Assembly (NCBI RefSeq): GCF_009931435.1
Contig: NZ_CP043414.1
Length of the DNA: 64,000 nt
Origin: Escherichia coli
Lineage (GTDB): Bacteria > Pseudomonadota > Gammaproteobacteria > Enterobacterales > Enterobacteriaceae
Reading direction: 5' to 3' (one strand)
A model generated the notes under the pieces. It had not been told where the DNA came from, searched no databases, and worked only from the letters and a program-made list of their open reading frames with translations. Below, in pieces: positions 45,059 to 50,086 of the stretch (its first letter is position 1; each line of letters starts with the position of its first letter). The position numbers and the translations under genes were made by a program.

Positions 45059-45200
45059 GCCACTCGATATCTGGTGCTACGGAAGTGTCCACACGGTTTA
45101 GCAGCACCCGATACTTTTTTCAGGCTTCCAGCAACGATCTTTCTTCCTCCGTTGCGATTTCCAGATCTACAGCATCCTGCAGTGGCGCAATATACTCACT
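45059..45200. repeat. Direct repeat copy A of the tfa 3'-end segment (partner at 46119-46260)
   Basis: About 140 bp at roughly 85-90 percent identity to 46119-46260, by manual alignment. Confidence 0.7.
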
Positions 45201-45305
45201 GAATTCCTGGATGTAGAACTGTGTAGTGACGGTCTTCCAGCCATTCGGCTCCTGCTGTATTGAAGCATACCAGGCTATTTCAATATCGCTATGCTGCGGC
45301 AGCAT
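45120..45305 (-). pseudogene. tfaX: Tail fibre assembly protein C-terminal remnant (tfaX-like)
   Basis: 61-aa ORF ending ...[23 protein letters not shown], homologous only to the C-terminal part of the intact Tfa at 46095-46679; lies in a duplicated roughly 140-bp segment. Confidence 0.7.
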
Positions 45306-45443: not shown

Positions 45444-46040
45444 TTGGGAGTATCAAATCGGCTTGCATGGGGATGTCCTACAAAGGAACACCTTCTTCCA
45501 CACCTTCTTCCACACTTTCTGGAACATTTAGGTAACAACCATCTGGATATTGGTGTTGGAACTGGGTTTTACCTTACTCACGTACCTGAGAGTAGTCTGA
45601 TATCTTTAATGGATTTGAACGAAGCTAGCCTGAACGCGGCATCTACAAGGGCTGGGGAATCAAAAATTAAACATAAAATTAGCCATGATGTTTTTGAACC
45701 TTATCCCGCGGCGTTACATGGTCAATTTGATTCCATTTCCATGTCTTACCTTCTTCACTGCCTGCCTGGAAATATATCTACAAAAAGCTGTGTAATACGC
45801 AATGCGGCGCAGGCCTTAACTGACGATGGAACTCTATACGGAGCCACAATTCTTGGCGATGGAGTTGTGCACAATAGCTTCGGTCAAAAACTGATGCGCA
45901 TTTACAATCAGAAAGGCATCTTTTCAAACACAAAAGATTCCGAAGAAGGCTTAACACATATACTCTCAGAGCATTTCGAGAATGTTAAAACCAAGGTTCA
46001 AGGTACTGTAGTAATGTTTTCCGCTTCAGGAAAAAAATAG
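45444..46040 (+). CDS. ybcY: Putative class I SAM-dependent methyltransferase (YbcY-like), possibly N-terminally truncated or a pseudogene
   Basis: 198-aa ORF with glycine-rich motif I (LDIGVGTGFY); the only in-frame start is a TTG, with no upstream ATG or GTG before the stop at 45375. Confidence 0.55.
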   Translation: MGVSNRLAWGCPTKEHLLPHLLPHFLEHLGNNHLDIGVGTGFYLTHVPESSLISLMDLNEASLNAASTRAGESKIKHKISHDVFEPYPAALHGQFDSISMSYLLHCLPGNISTKSCVIRNAAQALTDDGTLYGATILGDGVVHNSFGQKLMRIYNQKGIFSNTKDSEEGLTHILSEHFENVKTKVQGTVVMFSASGKK

Positions 46041-46094: not shown

Positions 46095-46679
46095 TTACTC
46101 CCTGACAGGGTTCGTAGGCCACTCAATATCAGGTGCAGTTGATGTATCAACACGGTTCAGCAACACCCGATATTTTTTCCAGGCTTCCAGCAATGAGGTT
46201 TCTTCCTCCGTTGCGATTTCCAGATCTACAGCATCCTGAAGTGGCGCAATATGCTCACTGGCTACCTGCATCAGGCTGTTTTTTGTTTCTTCCGCCTCCC
46301 GAATCCGGAACAGTTTTTCTGCTTCTGCATCTTTCACCCAGGCTGTACCGTTCCACTTCTGAAACTCCCCTTCCGGCGATAACCAGGTAACATTTTCCGG
46401 TAACGGACCGAGTTCAGAAATAAATAACGCGTCCCCTGACGCTACGTCATAAACCGTTTTACCCCGATGATCTTCAACGAGATGCCACGATGACTCATCA
46501 CTGTTGAAAACAGCCACGAAGCCAGCTGGAATATCTGGCGGTGCAATGTCGGTACTGTTTGCTGGCAGACCTGTATGAGGCGGAATATATGCGTCACCTT
46601 CACCAATAAATTCATTAGTTCCGGCCAGCAGATTATAAATTGTTATGGTCCGTGGTTGTTCACTCATTCTGAATGCCAT
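46095..46679 (-). CDS. tfa: Tail fibre assembly protein Tfa
   Basis: 194-aa [56 protein letters not shown]...; start overlaps the stf stop. Confidence 0.9.
46119..46260. repeat. Direct repeat copy B of the tfa 3'-end segment (inside the intact tfa)
   Basis: Partner of 45059-45200. Confidence 0.7.
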
Positions 46680-49600
46680 TATGCAAGCCTCACAATATAG
46701 TTAAATGCGATGTTTTTGACGGTGTTTTCCGCGTTACCAGCAGCGTTAACGGTGATGGTGTGTCCATGTGAGCCAATCGCAACCGAGTGCGTATGAGCAC
46801 CAATACCGACAGTATGTGCGTGTGCACCTGCGCTTGCTGCAGTGCCGGACAGTGAGTGGGTATGAGCACCATCTGATGATGTCTTCCCTGCATTACGAGT
46901 CTGGCCACTACCGCTTGTTGTGCTCATAATCCCCGCGCTTGGATTTGAAATCGCGGTATAACCATTAGGGAAAATGCTCGTGTTCGTGCCACCAAATGCA
47001 CCGGAACTCTTGTGTTGGTGCGCACCGGCACTATTTGCGGTCCCGCTAATACTATGGGTATGCGCCCCGGTGTTATTCGTGGATTTGGTTCCGTAATCAA
47101 ACGACGATGTGGTTTTCGTCCCCAAATCCGTACTGGATGCGCTGGCGCTGTGGGTATGCGATTTAATGCCGTCCTGTTCCTGAGACAATACGGCCCGACC
47201 ACTGGCAGGTTTGCCCTTAATCGTCCAGCCACGCATATCAGGGATCACGCCTGACGGATAAGCCGCTGCAAGTTTCGGGTAGGCAGATTTGTCAAAAGCC
47301 TGCCCCTGCATCAGGGCATAGCCAGACGGAACGGTATCTGATGGCCACGGGATTGGTGCGCCGACTGGGTAGCTTTCTGGTGGAAGATTTTTCGAGGTAT
47401 AAACTTCTGCCCAGTCTTCCTCAAAACCATAGCCATCTCTTGAGGAACGGTAGAACAGACCTCCATTTCTGTAATGCGCCTTCATCTGCAGGGTCCGGCA
47501 ACTTCCGACTCCGGTATAGAAGTTAACCAGAATATAGCTGTCGCCAGAGCGGGTGACATTGTAAGCGCCTGATTCGGCATTCCAGGGAACGCCACCATCC
47601 GCATCGGCATATGTATCCGTTGCCCTTCTGGCAAAAGCAGCCACATGCGCGGCGGTTAAAGTAATATCTTTGGAACCATCAAACTCAACACCAGAAACCA
47701 GTCTTGGCGTTTGCAGCTTTGTTGCTGTTAATGCATTACCGTTCAGACTTGCGGACAGTTTGGTTCCAATAATCAGTTCGCCGGTTGCGTTATCAATAGC
47801 AAACGGTCTTAATGTATTCCAGCCACCATAAACATCACCTTGATTGGTAAGCAGCAGGTAAGTTTTAGCGCCATCATTACGCCATAATGCACCATACTCC
47901 CCACCTATCATTCGAATCTGATTACCACCACGCGCTACAATTTCGTCTGTGGCAAAAAGTTTTTTGCACGACAAGTTATCGTTAACGATTAACGAATGAG
48001 ACTCATAAAAACCACGCCCACTCTTAAAATCAAGGATAACGTCCGCCGCGATACATTCAGTCGCCGGATTTGTTGCCCCAAACTTATAGGTCGTATCATT
48101 AACAACGAGATCAGCACCAGGTGCGGATATTGACAGGCCATCTTCGATAAACGCAAAAACAGGGAAAGCAGCGCCATCAACATAGAACACAGAGCGCAAA
48201 TCATCGCCCTTATTACTCATCATTATTGAGTGGATGGCTCGTTCATTGTTTTGATATTGCCAGAACATTCCATAAGCATAACGCCCCCTGTCAGTCCAGC
48301 CACCAGGCATAACAAATCCGTTAAACTCGCAGTTATTCATCGGATCGCCTGCGGTTCGCGTTGCCGTGGTGATAATGACCCTTGATGCCAGTTCGCTTAC
48401 TGAGCCAGCAGAACGCATAACAACAACAGGGTAATATTTTCCAGATGTTGCACCTGCAGGAGCGTTAACCCGCACATAACGCATACCACGCTTATCAGCA
48501 AAGTCTGTTTTACTGACCGCGTTAATGTTGTTCAGGAAGCGTCCCTTATCGGGTATATCAGCGCCGTTCTGGTCTTTCTGCAGACGTTTCTCTGCATTGT
48601 CATAGGCTGATTTTACTGCCTTTGGCGTTGCCGCCAGCGTTTCAGACGTACTGTTGGTCGCACTGCTGAGCTGTACTACCCCCTTTTTCGTCGTGCTCGC
48701 ATCCTCAAGCGCCACGGCGGATGCAATATCCTCTGCCCGTTTTGCCGCTGTCTCGGCGCGCGTTGCCGCGGATTCCGCCGTACTTTTGCTCTGAGCTGCC
48801 GCCGTCGCACTGCCAGCTGCCTCTGTCGCCTTCGTGGATGCCGTCGTGGCGCTGCTCTTCGCTGCTGACGCTTGTCTGGTCGCCTCATCTTTTGAAGCAG
48901 ACGCAGATGATGCCGATGACGCCGCCGAACTGGCTGACGATGCGGCAGCCGTTTTTGAGGATTCTGCGCTGGTTTCCGACGCTTTCGCGTTCGTTTCGGA
49001 TGTCTTCGCTGCGGAAGCAGAACTCGCTGCTGCGCTGGCCTGTTCAGTGGCTTCGCCAGCCTTCGTTGTGGCTGTTGAAGCAGACGATGCGGCACTTTCT
49101 GCCGACTTTCCGGCAGCGGTGGCACTGGCTGAGGCCTGCCCGGCACTTGTTGACGCGGCGCTGGCAGATGATGCAGCCGCTGTTTTTGAGTCTGCTGCTG
49201 CGGAGGCACTCTGTTCCGCTGCCGTCTCAGAAGACTTAGCGTTCGTCTCGGACGTTTTTGCCGCCTTCGCGGAATTTCCTGCCGCCGTTGCCGAGGAAGC
49301 TGCGCTACTGGCGCTCGAGGATGCGTTCGTTTCTGATGATTTCGCTGCCTCTTTTGAGGCCGCCGCATCCCTGGCTGAGGTGGCAGCTTCTGACGCTTTC
49401 CTGGTCGCGGTGGATGCAGAAGTGGCTGCTGATTGTTGTGACGCTGCGGCATTCGTTTCTGACGTTTTCGCCGCACCGGCACTGGTGGCCGCCGCGCTTT
49501 TTGAGGACTCTGCAGCGGCAGCACTTTTTTCCGCTTCAGTGGCCTTTGCTGATGCCGTTCCTGCGCTGGAAGATGCTGACTGAGCCGACGACGCGGCCTG

Positions 49601-50086
49601 TCCGGCTGACGTGCTGGCTGCGCGTGCTGAGCCTGCAGCATCAGTCGCATGGGTTGCCGCCTCACTGGCAGATGTGCTGGCATCGCCGGCTGACTTCTTC
49701 GCGGCTGCCGTGTTTTGTGCCACCGCGGACGCGTTACGCGCCACCTCTTCCACCATCAGTTCAAAACGGCGCAGAGCCTCCGGACGGGCATCATCCTCCG
49801 TCATGGCACCGAGAAAATCATTCAGCGTACCGGGTCGGGAATCTTCATACACGGTGATGGTCCCGGCATGTGACGGCGGGAATCCTTCCACCAACAGAAT
49901 AACGCTGTACTGACCGTACTCAACGTCCATGCTGTAACGCCCGGCTTCATCCGGATTTTCTGAGGCCAGCGTGTTCACCACCACCGCGGTGCTGTTACGT
50001 TTTGCTTTCAGCTGGATTGTGCAGTTCTGTACCGGTTTTCCTGTGCCGTCTTTCAGTACACCTGAAATCTTTACTGCCATATTCAC
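46679..50086 (-). CDS. stf: Side tail fibre protein Stf (lambda Stf / StfR-like)
   Basis: 1135-aa [40 protein letters not shown]...; long Ala/Ser/Thr-rich repetitive shaft; C-terminal His-rich GAHTHS-type motifs and ...[13 protein letters not shown]. Confidence 0.9.

What the first reader, a model, noticed from the sequence alone, without database searches (positions are those of the whole stretch)
46682..47130. His-rich repeated motifs at the Stf C-terminal tip
The last roughly 150 residues contain repeated HxH motifs ([63 protein letters not shown]). Similar motifs in long tail fibre tips coordinate metal ions in a trimeric beta-helix. This is the part of the fibre most likely to determine receptor specificity and to be chaperoned by the downstream Tfa.
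Basis: partly seen in the sequence, partly recalled or inferred. Interest (0 to 1): 0.3.

Follow-up and report, generated by a model that had tools for sequence, protein, structure and literature searches.

The report
Prophage tail-fibre tip, T4 gp37-like
The paired histidines are real and mark the end of a prophage side tail fibre that closely matches the crystallised receptor-binding needle of phage T4, a well-described structure found in most E. coli genomes, so the finding is correct but ordinary.

Summary
The minus-strand gene 46679..50086 is a lambda-type side tail fibre (Stf) of 1133-1135 aa. It carries seven HxH motifs, and all 14 histidines of its last 232 residues sit in them. None of 20,000 shuffles reached seven. 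The first motif (SHTHS, nt 47150-47158) lies just outside the stated range.

The last 232 residues match the crystal structure of the T4 gp37 receptor-binding tip (PDB 2XGF, E = 3.6e-83). All seven HxH motifs align with the seven iron-binding sites of gp37.

The whole protein is 95% identical to K-12 Rac StfR. The downstream gene is a Tfa chaperone, 94% identical to lambda-type Tfa and 29% to T4 gp38.

One refinement: the HxH motifs are an invariant scaffold, not the specificity determinant. Variability is confined to a 49-residue cassette between motifs 3 and 4 (residues 1026-1074, nt 46865-47011). This cassette corresponds to the gp37 head domain.

Across the family, the ascending and descending arms of the needle change length together.

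The module family is already published. This exact cassette occurs in 994 of 5426 complete E. coli genomes. Structure prediction failed here and adds nothing.

Verdict: already known, low interest.

The parts
46679..50086 (-). stf, the side tail fibre gene. The ORF lister starts it at GTG 50086 (1135 aa). The likely true start is ATG 50080 (1133 aa, MAVKISG...). The stop codon TAA is at 46679-46681.
   Evidence: 95% identity over the full length to K-12 StfR, starting at MAVKISG; phrog_295 tail fiber, E = 4e-241.
49679..50080 (-). N-terminal tail-attachment domain (residues 3-136; Pfam phage_tail_N).
   Evidence: PF08400, E = 3.2e-71.
47795..48094 (-). Shaft domain resembling the T4 gp34 trimerisation domain (residues 665-764).
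   Evidence: PF21446, E = 3.4e-27.
46682..47377 (-). gp37-type receptor-binding tip module (residues 904-1135), made of collar, needle and head. It is homologous to T4 gp37 residues 811-1026.
   Evidence: 2xgf_A, E = 3.6e-83, covering query 19-250. Collar PF07484 at residues 909-956 (nt 47219-47362).
47150..47158 (-). HxH motif 1 (H977/H979, SHTHS).
   Evidence: invariant column.
47054..47062 (-). HxH motif 2 (H1009/H1011), corresponding to gp37 H915/H917.
   Evidence: invariant.
47012..47020 (-). HxH motif 3 (H1023/H1025, AHQHK), corresponding to gp37 H929/H931. It is the last rung of the ascending arm.
   Evidence: H929/H931 are iron ligands and are essential.
46865..47011 (-). Hypervariable head cassette (residues 1026-1074, KSSGAFGG...TSSDGA). 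It is the equivalent of the gp37 tip subdomain 932-965 and is the predicted receptor-contact surface.
   Evidence: entropy peak. (the main divergent block versus StfR). (18-29% identity to other cassettes, against 94-100% for the flanking scaffold in the closest lambdoid relatives). (DNA identity falls to 27-53%)..
46856..46864 (-). HxH motif 4 (H1075/H1077), corresponding to gp37 H966/H968. It is the first rung of the descending arm.
46814..46822 (-). HxH motif 5 (H1089/H1091), corresponding to gp37 H980/H982.
   Evidence: invariant.
46787..46795 (-). HxH motif 6 (H1098/H1100), corresponding to gp37 H989/H991.
   Evidence: invariant.
46760..46768 (-). HxH motif 7 (H1107/H1109), corresponding to gp37 H998/H1000.
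   Evidence: invariant.
46682..46732 (-). Invariant C-terminal strand (...[16 protein letters not shown]) that returns into the collar. It is equivalent to gp37 1010-1026.
46095..46679 (-). tfa, the tail fibre assembly chaperone (194 aa). Its ATG shares one base with the stf stop codon (TAATG).
   Evidence: (Caudo_TAP, E = 3.2e-45), and (phrog_105, E = 3e-101).

Best explanation
The region is the C-terminal receptor-binding module of a lambda-type prophage side tail fibre (Stf). It belongs to the same family as the phage T4 gp37 tip.

By homology, three chains intertwine. Each chain leaves a collar domain (residues 904-975) and runs up a thin needle (976-1025). It then forms a small head at the far end (1026-1074), runs back down (1075-1118), and finishes in the collar (1119-1135).

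Each HxH motif contributes two histidines per chain. The trimer therefore forms seven stacked six-histidine metal sites on the needle axis: three from the ascending arm and four from the descending arm. The metal is iron in gp37. These sites rivet the needle together and are structural.

Receptor choice lies in the 49-residue head cassette. It is exchanged as a block between fibres, using the conserved flanks as homology arms.

The overlapping downstream gene tfa encodes the chaperone that drives trimerisation.

What is shown: the homology, the motif alignment, the conservation pattern, the mosaic boundaries and the gene order. What is inferred: the trimer, the metal identity, receptor binding by the head, and which receptor it binds.
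For: - Homology to a solved structure. phmmer against the PDB hits 2XGF (T4 gp37 tip) at E = 3.6e-83 over 232 residues, with all seven HxH motifs aligned.
- Published gp37 biology. The needle holds seven His-coordinated iron atoms. H929/H931 and several tip residues between 933 and 949 are essential (PMC6957217). Domain limits come from the same source.
- Pfam domains. phage_tail_N, Gp34_trimer and Collar in Stf; Caudo_TAP in the next gene.
- Close relatives. The full length is 95% identical to K-12 StfR, with the main divergent block in the head. Tfa is 94% identical to lambda-type Tfa and 29% to gp38.
- Conservation. HxH 1, 2, 5, 6 and 7 are invariant and HxH 4 is at least 90% conserved across 21 diverse fibres. 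HxH 3 and 4 are missing only in the short-needle variants. The head is unalignable.
- DNA mosaic. Identity to Rac stfR is 96-100% on both sides and 27-53% across about 46866-47090.
- Hairpin geometry. In 226 family members the two arms change length together. (Up, down) arm lengths were (46,32), (32,18), (42,27), (56,41) and (52,36). Pearson r = 0.93 among the 116 representative clusters.
- Gene order is J-lom-stf-tfa, as in lambda.
- Literature. Ur-lambda Stf is structurally homologous to gp37 and binds OmpC (PMC12617516). The family, with conserved flanks, a variable core of 30-70 aa and an adjacent chaperone, is already described (PMC9659904).
Against:
- Both AlphaFold2 attempts failed. The monomer had mean pLDDT 50.5 and the glycine-linked trimer 36.2. 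Foldseek's only hit, 2xgf_A, has TM 0.26.
- The head cassette is only 18-29% identical to the T4, lambda and Rac cassettes, so its receptor cannot be inferred.
- Whether this prophage still expresses the fibre was not tested.
Confidence: 0.9

Rival explanations
1. The histidine-bound metal is itself the ligand that the host recognises. This is the 'Ferrojan/Trojan horse' idea, in which iron in the fibre is taken for siderophore iron. On this reading the HxH motifs would determine specificity.
For: The hypothesis is discussed in the literature for HxH-bearing fibres (PMC11705849).
Against: The HxH columns are invariant or nearly so across fibres that carry at least 60 unrelated head cassettes. 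Those fibres come from phages with different known receptors, namely OmpC and/or LPS for T4 and lambda. In gp37 the histidines are described as metal ligands critical for folding and structure, and receptor-binding mutations map to the tip.
Confidence: 0.03
2. Tfa is more than a folding chaperone. It stays on the mature fibre tip and contributes to host binding, as reported for Mu and Ur-lambda. Specificity would then be shared between the head cassette and Tfa.
For: A review passage states that the chaperones of Ur-lambda and Mu are present in mature particles, and that Mu TFA contributes to receptor recognition (PMC9608196). The tfa gene is translationally coupled to stf.
Against: Tfa stays 94-98% identical among lambdoid loci whose head cassettes are unrelated (18-29% identity). 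It therefore does not co-vary with the specificity cassette. The T4 homologue gp38 is absent from virions.
Confidence: 0.3
3. The gene is an inert remnant of a decaying prophage. The motifs are preserved only by recent descent, and the tip is not made or used.
For: The locus is the DLP12 site (envY-ompT-appY next to tfa'/ybcY), which is cryptic in K-12. Other strains carry a Nu1::stf-tip deletion fusion at this site.
Against: The ORF is uninterrupted over 1133 codons and lacks the frameshift reported for laboratory lambda (seen in HK630). J, lom and the tape-measure gene are intact upstream. A free phage, ev099, carries a 99.2% identical tip.
Confidence: 0.15
4. The sites bind zinc or another divalent metal rather than iron.
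For: The metal was not determined here, and the collar fold is shared with T4 gp12. From my own knowledge, not tested here, gp12 coordinates zinc through histidines.
Against: The direct homologue gp37, 64.5% identical over the tip, was modelled with seven iron atoms.
Confidence: 0.2

Closest known systems
Phage T4 long tail fibre distal subunit gp37, receptor-binding tip (PDB 2XGF)
   Same: The collar, needle, seven HxH motifs and C-terminal ...[15 protein letters not shown] align over 232 residues (E = 3.6e-83; 64.5% identity by tblastn). A gp38/Tfa-type chaperone gene lies immediately downstream.
   Different: The head cassette is 49 residues here against 34 in T4, and only 18% identical. 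The rest of the fibre is unrelated: a lambda-type N-terminus on a siphovirus tail rather than a T4 baseplate fibre.
E. coli K-12 Rac prophage StfR/TfaR
   Same: 95% identity over the full length. The domain order, the seven HxH motifs and the downstream Tfa are the same.
   Different: The head cassette is replaced (36 against 49 residues, 29% identity). The chromosomal site differs (Rac against the DLP12 site), and Rac has pinR after tfaR.
Ur-lambda Stf/Tfa (represented here by HK630)
   Same: J-lom-stf-tfa gene order. Tfa is 94% identical and the tip scaffold is 80-81% identical. The published Ur-lambda fibre model is gp37-like and binds OmpC.
   Different: Lambda has eight HxH motifs plus one extra FDYGTK repeat, giving a longer needle. 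Its head cassette is different, and its shaft upstream of the collar is unrelated at the DNA level.
Escherichia phage ev099 (Radostvirus) tail fibre
   Same: The last 250 residues are 99.2% identical, including the same head cassette.
   Different: It is a free phage genome. The fibre is annotated as two shorter CDSs.
The 'T4- and lambda-based RBP family' of Magaziner and Salmond 2022 (PMC9659904)
   Same: Conserved flanks (gp37 812-931 and 966-1026), a unique core of 30-70 aa, and an assembly gene always directly downstream. This is exactly the architecture found here.
   Different: None of substance. This locus is one more member.

Membership tests
gp37-type receptor-binding tip (2XGF family) | Significant sequence homology across the collar, needle and C-terminus of the crystallised tip. 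| tested here: met
   E = 3.6e-83, query 19-250 against chain 27-242.
gp37-type receptor-binding tip (2XGF family) | HxH motifs at the positions of the seven metal sites. | tested here: met
   All seven align. H1023/H1025 correspond to H929/H931, which are named as iron ligands.
gp37-type receptor-binding tip (2XGF family) | Phage tail collar domain (Pfam PF07484) preceding the needle. | tested here: met
   E = 1.5e-11, 44.5 bits against a cut-off of 24.
gp37-type receptor-binding tip (2XGF family) | Variable head segment flanked by conserved arms. | tested here: met
gp37-type receptor-binding tip (2XGF family) | Interwoven homotrimer with six-histidine (His6) metal sites. | not testable with these tools
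   The AF2 models were of low confidence and no coordinates or metals are available. The arm-length coupling supports a hairpin needle only indirectly.
   Foldseek's only PDB hit is 2xgf_A (E = 3.4e-11), but TM is 0.26 from a model with pLDDT 50.
Lambda-type side tail fibre Stf | N-terminal prophage tail fibre domain (PF08400). | tested here: met
   E = 3.2e-71.
Lambda-type side tail fibre Stf | Position after J and lom, followed by tfa. | tested here: met
   J domains; Ail_Lom, E = 1e-94; Caudo_TAP.
Lambda-type side tail fibre Stf | Binds OmpC and accelerates adsorption. | not testable with these tools
   This is known for Ur-lambda. The head cassette here is only 26.5% identical to lambda's.
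Tfa / gp38-type tail fibre assembly chaperone (downstream gene) | Caudo_TAP domain, homology to lambda Tfa and T4 gp38, and a position directly downstream. | tested here: met

The most novel reading that the evidence does not exclude
The 49-residue head cassette carried here is present in 994 of 5426 complete E. coli genomes and in phage ev099. It may recognise a surface receptor different from the OmpC/LPS known for the lambda and T4 cassettes.

Separately, the strict pairing of 10-residue xDYGTK units on the ascending arm with 9-residue IGxHxHxV units on the descending arm may be an undescribed rule for how this needle grows or shrinks one metal rung at a time.
Probability: 0.3. Interest if true: 0.25.

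Novelty: already known. Interest (0 to 1): 0.1.

Why it matters
This adds little new biology. The gp37/Stf tip, its iron-binding HxH motifs, its variable receptor core and its adjacent chaperone are all published. The sequence itself is common in E. coli.

Its practical value is for annotation. It marks an intact side-fibre module at the DLP12 site, where K-12 retains only remnants. It also delimits precisely the block (nt 46865-47011) that would need to be swapped to retarget the fibre. That is relevant to host-range engineering of lambda-based particles.

Tried and rejected
- **AlphaFold2 monomer.** The 232-residue tip was predicted with a 21-sequence alignment. Mean pLDDT was 50.5 and pTM 0.19, which is unusable.
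- **AlphaFold2 linked trimer.** Three copies were joined by (GGGGS)5 linkers with an 11-sequence concatenated alignment. Mean pLDDT was 36.2, worse than the monomer. The tool returns no coordinates, so His-His geometry could not be measured in any case.
- **Foldseek with the monomer model.** It returned only 2xgf_A, but with TM 0.26. The hit is driven by sequence-like signal and is not independent structural evidence.
- **Tandem Repeats Finder on the whole gene.** It found no arrays. The Ala/Ser-rich shaft and the HxH units are not DNA tandem repeats.
- **Hin/Gin/Pin-type crossover site.** I looked for one (AAACCNNGGTTT, one mismatch) that might explain the chimeric database proteins joined at MRGW. 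None lies in stf, and the count was at chance level (4 found against 2.1 expected).
- **Bartual et al. 2010 (PMC2996694).** The paper is not held, so the gp37 structural facts are cited through papers that describe it.
- **First translations.** The plus strand and a wrong frame gave stop-filled output and were discarded.

Full report
**What is in the sequence**

The stated range lies inside a minus-strand ORF, 46679..50086. The ORF lister starts it at a GTG (1135 aa). The ATG two codons later gives MAVKISG..., which is the start of K-12 StfR. I use the 1135-aa numbering throughout.

There are seven HxH motifs, starting at residues 977, 1009, 1023, 1075, 1089, 1098 and 1107. All 14 histidines of the last 232 residues belong to them. 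The other 903 residues hold only six histidines.

In 20,000 composition-preserving shuffles the mean number of HxH motifs was 0.33 to 1.06, depending on the segment shuffled. The maximum was 5, and none reached 7.

These are trivial errors.

At the DNA level only the 13-18 nt stretches encoding G-A-H-T-H-S recur, and TRF finds no arrays.

**What it is**

Pfam finds the following in the ORF:
- phage_tail_N at residues 3-136
- a gp34-like trimerisation domain at 665-764
- the phage tail Collar domain at 909-956

The next gene (46095..46679) is a Caudo_TAP tail fibre assembly protein. Its ATG shares a base with the stf stop codon (TAATG).

Upstream lie lom, a full-length J and a lambda-type tape-measure gene. 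This is the lambda late-operon order. The flanking chromosomal genes (envY, ompT, appY) place it at the DLP12 prophage site.

The whole protein is 95% identical to K-12 Rac StfR.

A phmmer search of the PDB with the last 250 residues hits the crystal structure of the T4 gp37 receptor-binding tip. The hit is 2XGF at E = 3.6e-83 and covers 232 residues. Each of the seven HxH motifs aligns with a gp37 HxH motif, and the C-terminal ...[16 protein letters not shown] is identical.

**How it most likely works**

In gp37, domain D10 (the collar) is formed by residues 811-881 and 1010-1026. The needle D11 (882-1009) is an insertion into D10. Seven iron atoms are coordinated by histidines along the needle. 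H929/H931 and several tip residues between 933 and 949 are essential, and receptor-binding mutations map to the tip (PMC6957217). Other papers describe the HxH pairs as the iron ligands (PMC11705849). They describe the fold as a six-stranded antiparallel needle with an intertwined head (PMC9659904).

Transferring the alignment gives this map for the Stf here:

| Element | Stf residues | gp37 equivalent |
|---|---|---|
| Collar | 904-975 and 1119-1135 | 811-881 and 1010-1026 |
| Ascending arm (HxH 1-3) | 976-1025 | 882-931 |
| Head | 1026-1074 | 932-965 |
| Descending arm (HxH 4-7) | 1075-1118 | 966-1009 |

H1023/H1025 correspond to gp37 H929/H931.

By inference, a trimer forms seven stacked six-histidine (His6) metal sites that hold the needle together, and the head contacts the receptor.

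**Evidence from relatives**

The module is very common.
- 641 phage records match.
- At least 1754 database proteins match at E <= 1e-10.
- 2686 representative clusters at 50% identity match at E <= 1e-3.
- 5180 of 5426 complete E. coli genomes match, with a median of three places per genome.

In an alignment of 121 sequences, and in a curated set of 21 that includes T4-like, lambda-like and P2-like fibres, the HxH columns are invariant or nearly so. The segment between motifs 3 and 4 is unalignable.

Against Rac StfR, the up-arm scaffold is 97% identical, the down-arm 100% and the head 29%. Against T4 the figures are 77%, 77% and 18%.

At the DNA level, identity to Rac stfR is 96-100% on both sides and falls to 27-53% across about 46866-47090. 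This is a sharply bounded mosaic block. I infer cassette exchange by recombination in the conserved flanks.

Among 226 family members I counted 119 distinct head sequences, falling into about 66 groups. Their lengths ranged from 29 to 67 residues.

This particular cassette is present at 95% identity or more in 994 of 5426 complete E. coli genomes and in phage ev099.

**A family-wide regularity that supports the hairpin needle**

The spacing of the HxH motifs falls into a few classes. Listing the spacings in residues between successive motifs, with "head" for the variable segment:
- [32, 14, head, 14, 9, 9], the class of this Stf and of T4
- [42, 14, head, 14, 9, 9, 9], the lambda class
- [32, head, 9, 9]
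- [42, head, 9, 9, 9]
- [52, head, 9, 9, 9, 9]

Each extra 10-residue xDYGTK unit on the ascending arm is matched by an extra 9-residue IGxHxHxV unit on the descending arm. The 14-residue units appear or vanish on both arms together.

The (up, down) arm lengths are (46,32), (32,18), (42,27), (56,41) and (52,36). Pearson r = 0.93 among the 116 representative clusters. This is what an antiparallel needle requires, because its two arms must stay in register.

**The chaperone**

Tfa here is 94% identical to the lambda-type Tfa of HK630 and 29% identical (E = 6e-18) to T4 gp38.

The fibre gene is directly followed by such a gene in every annotated lambda-like and P2-like locus I opened, and in T4. 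In Yersinia phage 646 the tip-bearing CDS had no annotated assembly gene directly after it.

Published work cited reports that lambda Tfa can replace gp38.

Among six lambdoid loci carrying four unrelated head cassettes, Tfa stays 94-98% identical. It therefore does not track the specificity cassette. More likely it acts on the conserved scaffold. This inference rests on a small sample.

A review passage says the Ur-lambda and Mu chaperones remain in the virion. A contribution of Tfa to host binding is therefore not excluded.

**Modelling**

AF2 gave a mean pLDDT of 50.5 for the monomer and 36.2 for a glycine-linked trimer. Foldseek against the PDB returned only 2xgf_A, but with TM 0.26.

I give these results no weight. 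Tip identity of 64.5% to a crystallised homologue over 232 residues is sufficient for assigning the fold.

**Comparison with what is known, and novelty**

Homology of lambda Stf with the gp37 tip, and its binding to OmpC, are stated in PMC12617516.

The family architecture is laid out in PMC9659904: conserved flanks at gp37 812-931 and 966-1026, a unique core of 30-70 residues, and an assembly gene always downstream.

The sequence here is 100% identical over the tip to a database cluster of 333 member sequences.

The finding is therefore a correct reading of an already known and very common module. The points I add are these:
- The HxH motifs are scaffold rather than specificity determinant.
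- The cassette has exact limits (nt 46865-47011).
- Tfa does not co-vary with the cassette.
- The two arms of the needle change length together.

The receptor of this cassette remains unknown.

Noticed in passing
Family-wide (proteins P0001-P0264). In the window, nt 46760-47158.: The needle arms change length in lock-step across the family. Each extra 10-aa xDYGTK unit on the ascending arm comes with an extra 9-aa IGxHxHxV unit on the descending arm. The 14-aa units are gained or lost on both arms together (r = 0.93 among 116 representative clusters). I did not find this rule stated in the papers I read.
   Followed up: partly
L012/L013/L014 4001-5086 (protein P0030). Equivalent window position about 47234.: In other E. 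coli strains the same chromosomal site carries lysis genes, then a Nu1(terminase small)::stf-tip fusion ORF, then tfa, ybcY, tfa', appY and ompT. This is a deletion from Nu1 into stf, joined at ...SEY|[10 protein letters not shown] with ATAT microhomology (GAATAT|ATGCGT). It looks like an intermediate between the intact arrangement in this window and the K-12 DLP12 remnant.
   Followed up: partly
Database proteins P0053, P0061, P0062, P0049, P0050 and P0107.: Several further database proteins have an unrelated phage N-terminus (GpA terminase, J-like, Phage_fiber_2, Lom, portal) fused to the Stf tip. Three of them are joined at the same residue (|[10 protein letters not shown]) as P0030. It is unexplained whether these are real deletions, assembly chimeras at a repeat boundary, or a recombination hot spot.
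   Followed up: no
Window 45120-45305 (-) and 45444-46040 (+).: Downstream of tfa lie a class I SAM methyltransferase gene (ybcY-like; Pfam Methyltransf_12) and a 61-aa remnant of a second tfa (74% identical over 35 aa to Tfa residues 132-166). The free phage PhiR29_1 has the same stf-tfa-ybcY-tfa' order, so these are phage cargo rather than chromosomal genes.
   Followed up: partly
Window 50080-50086.: The mechanical ORF starts at GTG 50086 (MNMAVK...). The ATG at 50080 matches the annotated start of K-12 StfR (MAVKISG) and is the likelier start.
   Followed up: yes
Window 46677-46681.: The stf stop codon and the tfa start codon overlap by one base (TAATG), which suggests translational coupling. 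The same abutting arrangement is annotated in K-12 Rac, HK630, PhiR29_1, ev099 and the P2-like phages.
   Followed up: yes
Window about 48680-49680.: The Ala/Ser/Thr-rich shaft segment of Stf (residues about 137-470) produces long spurious ORFs in other frames and on the opposite strand (for example 48676..49683, 335 aa, and 48834..49583, 249 aa). TRF finds no DNA tandem repeat there despite the repetitive protein composition.
   Followed up: partly
Protein P0121.: One representative protein (938 aa) matches the tip profile in two separate stretches (E = 4e-188). It may be a fibre with two tip modules, or a read-through of two adjacent genes.
   Followed up: no
L011 6085-6675 (K-12 Rac), compared with window 45444-46040.: In K-12 Rac the stfR-tfaR pair is followed by the invertase gene pinR. 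Here it is followed by ybcY. No Hin/Gin-type crossover site was found in the window's stf.
   Followed up: partly
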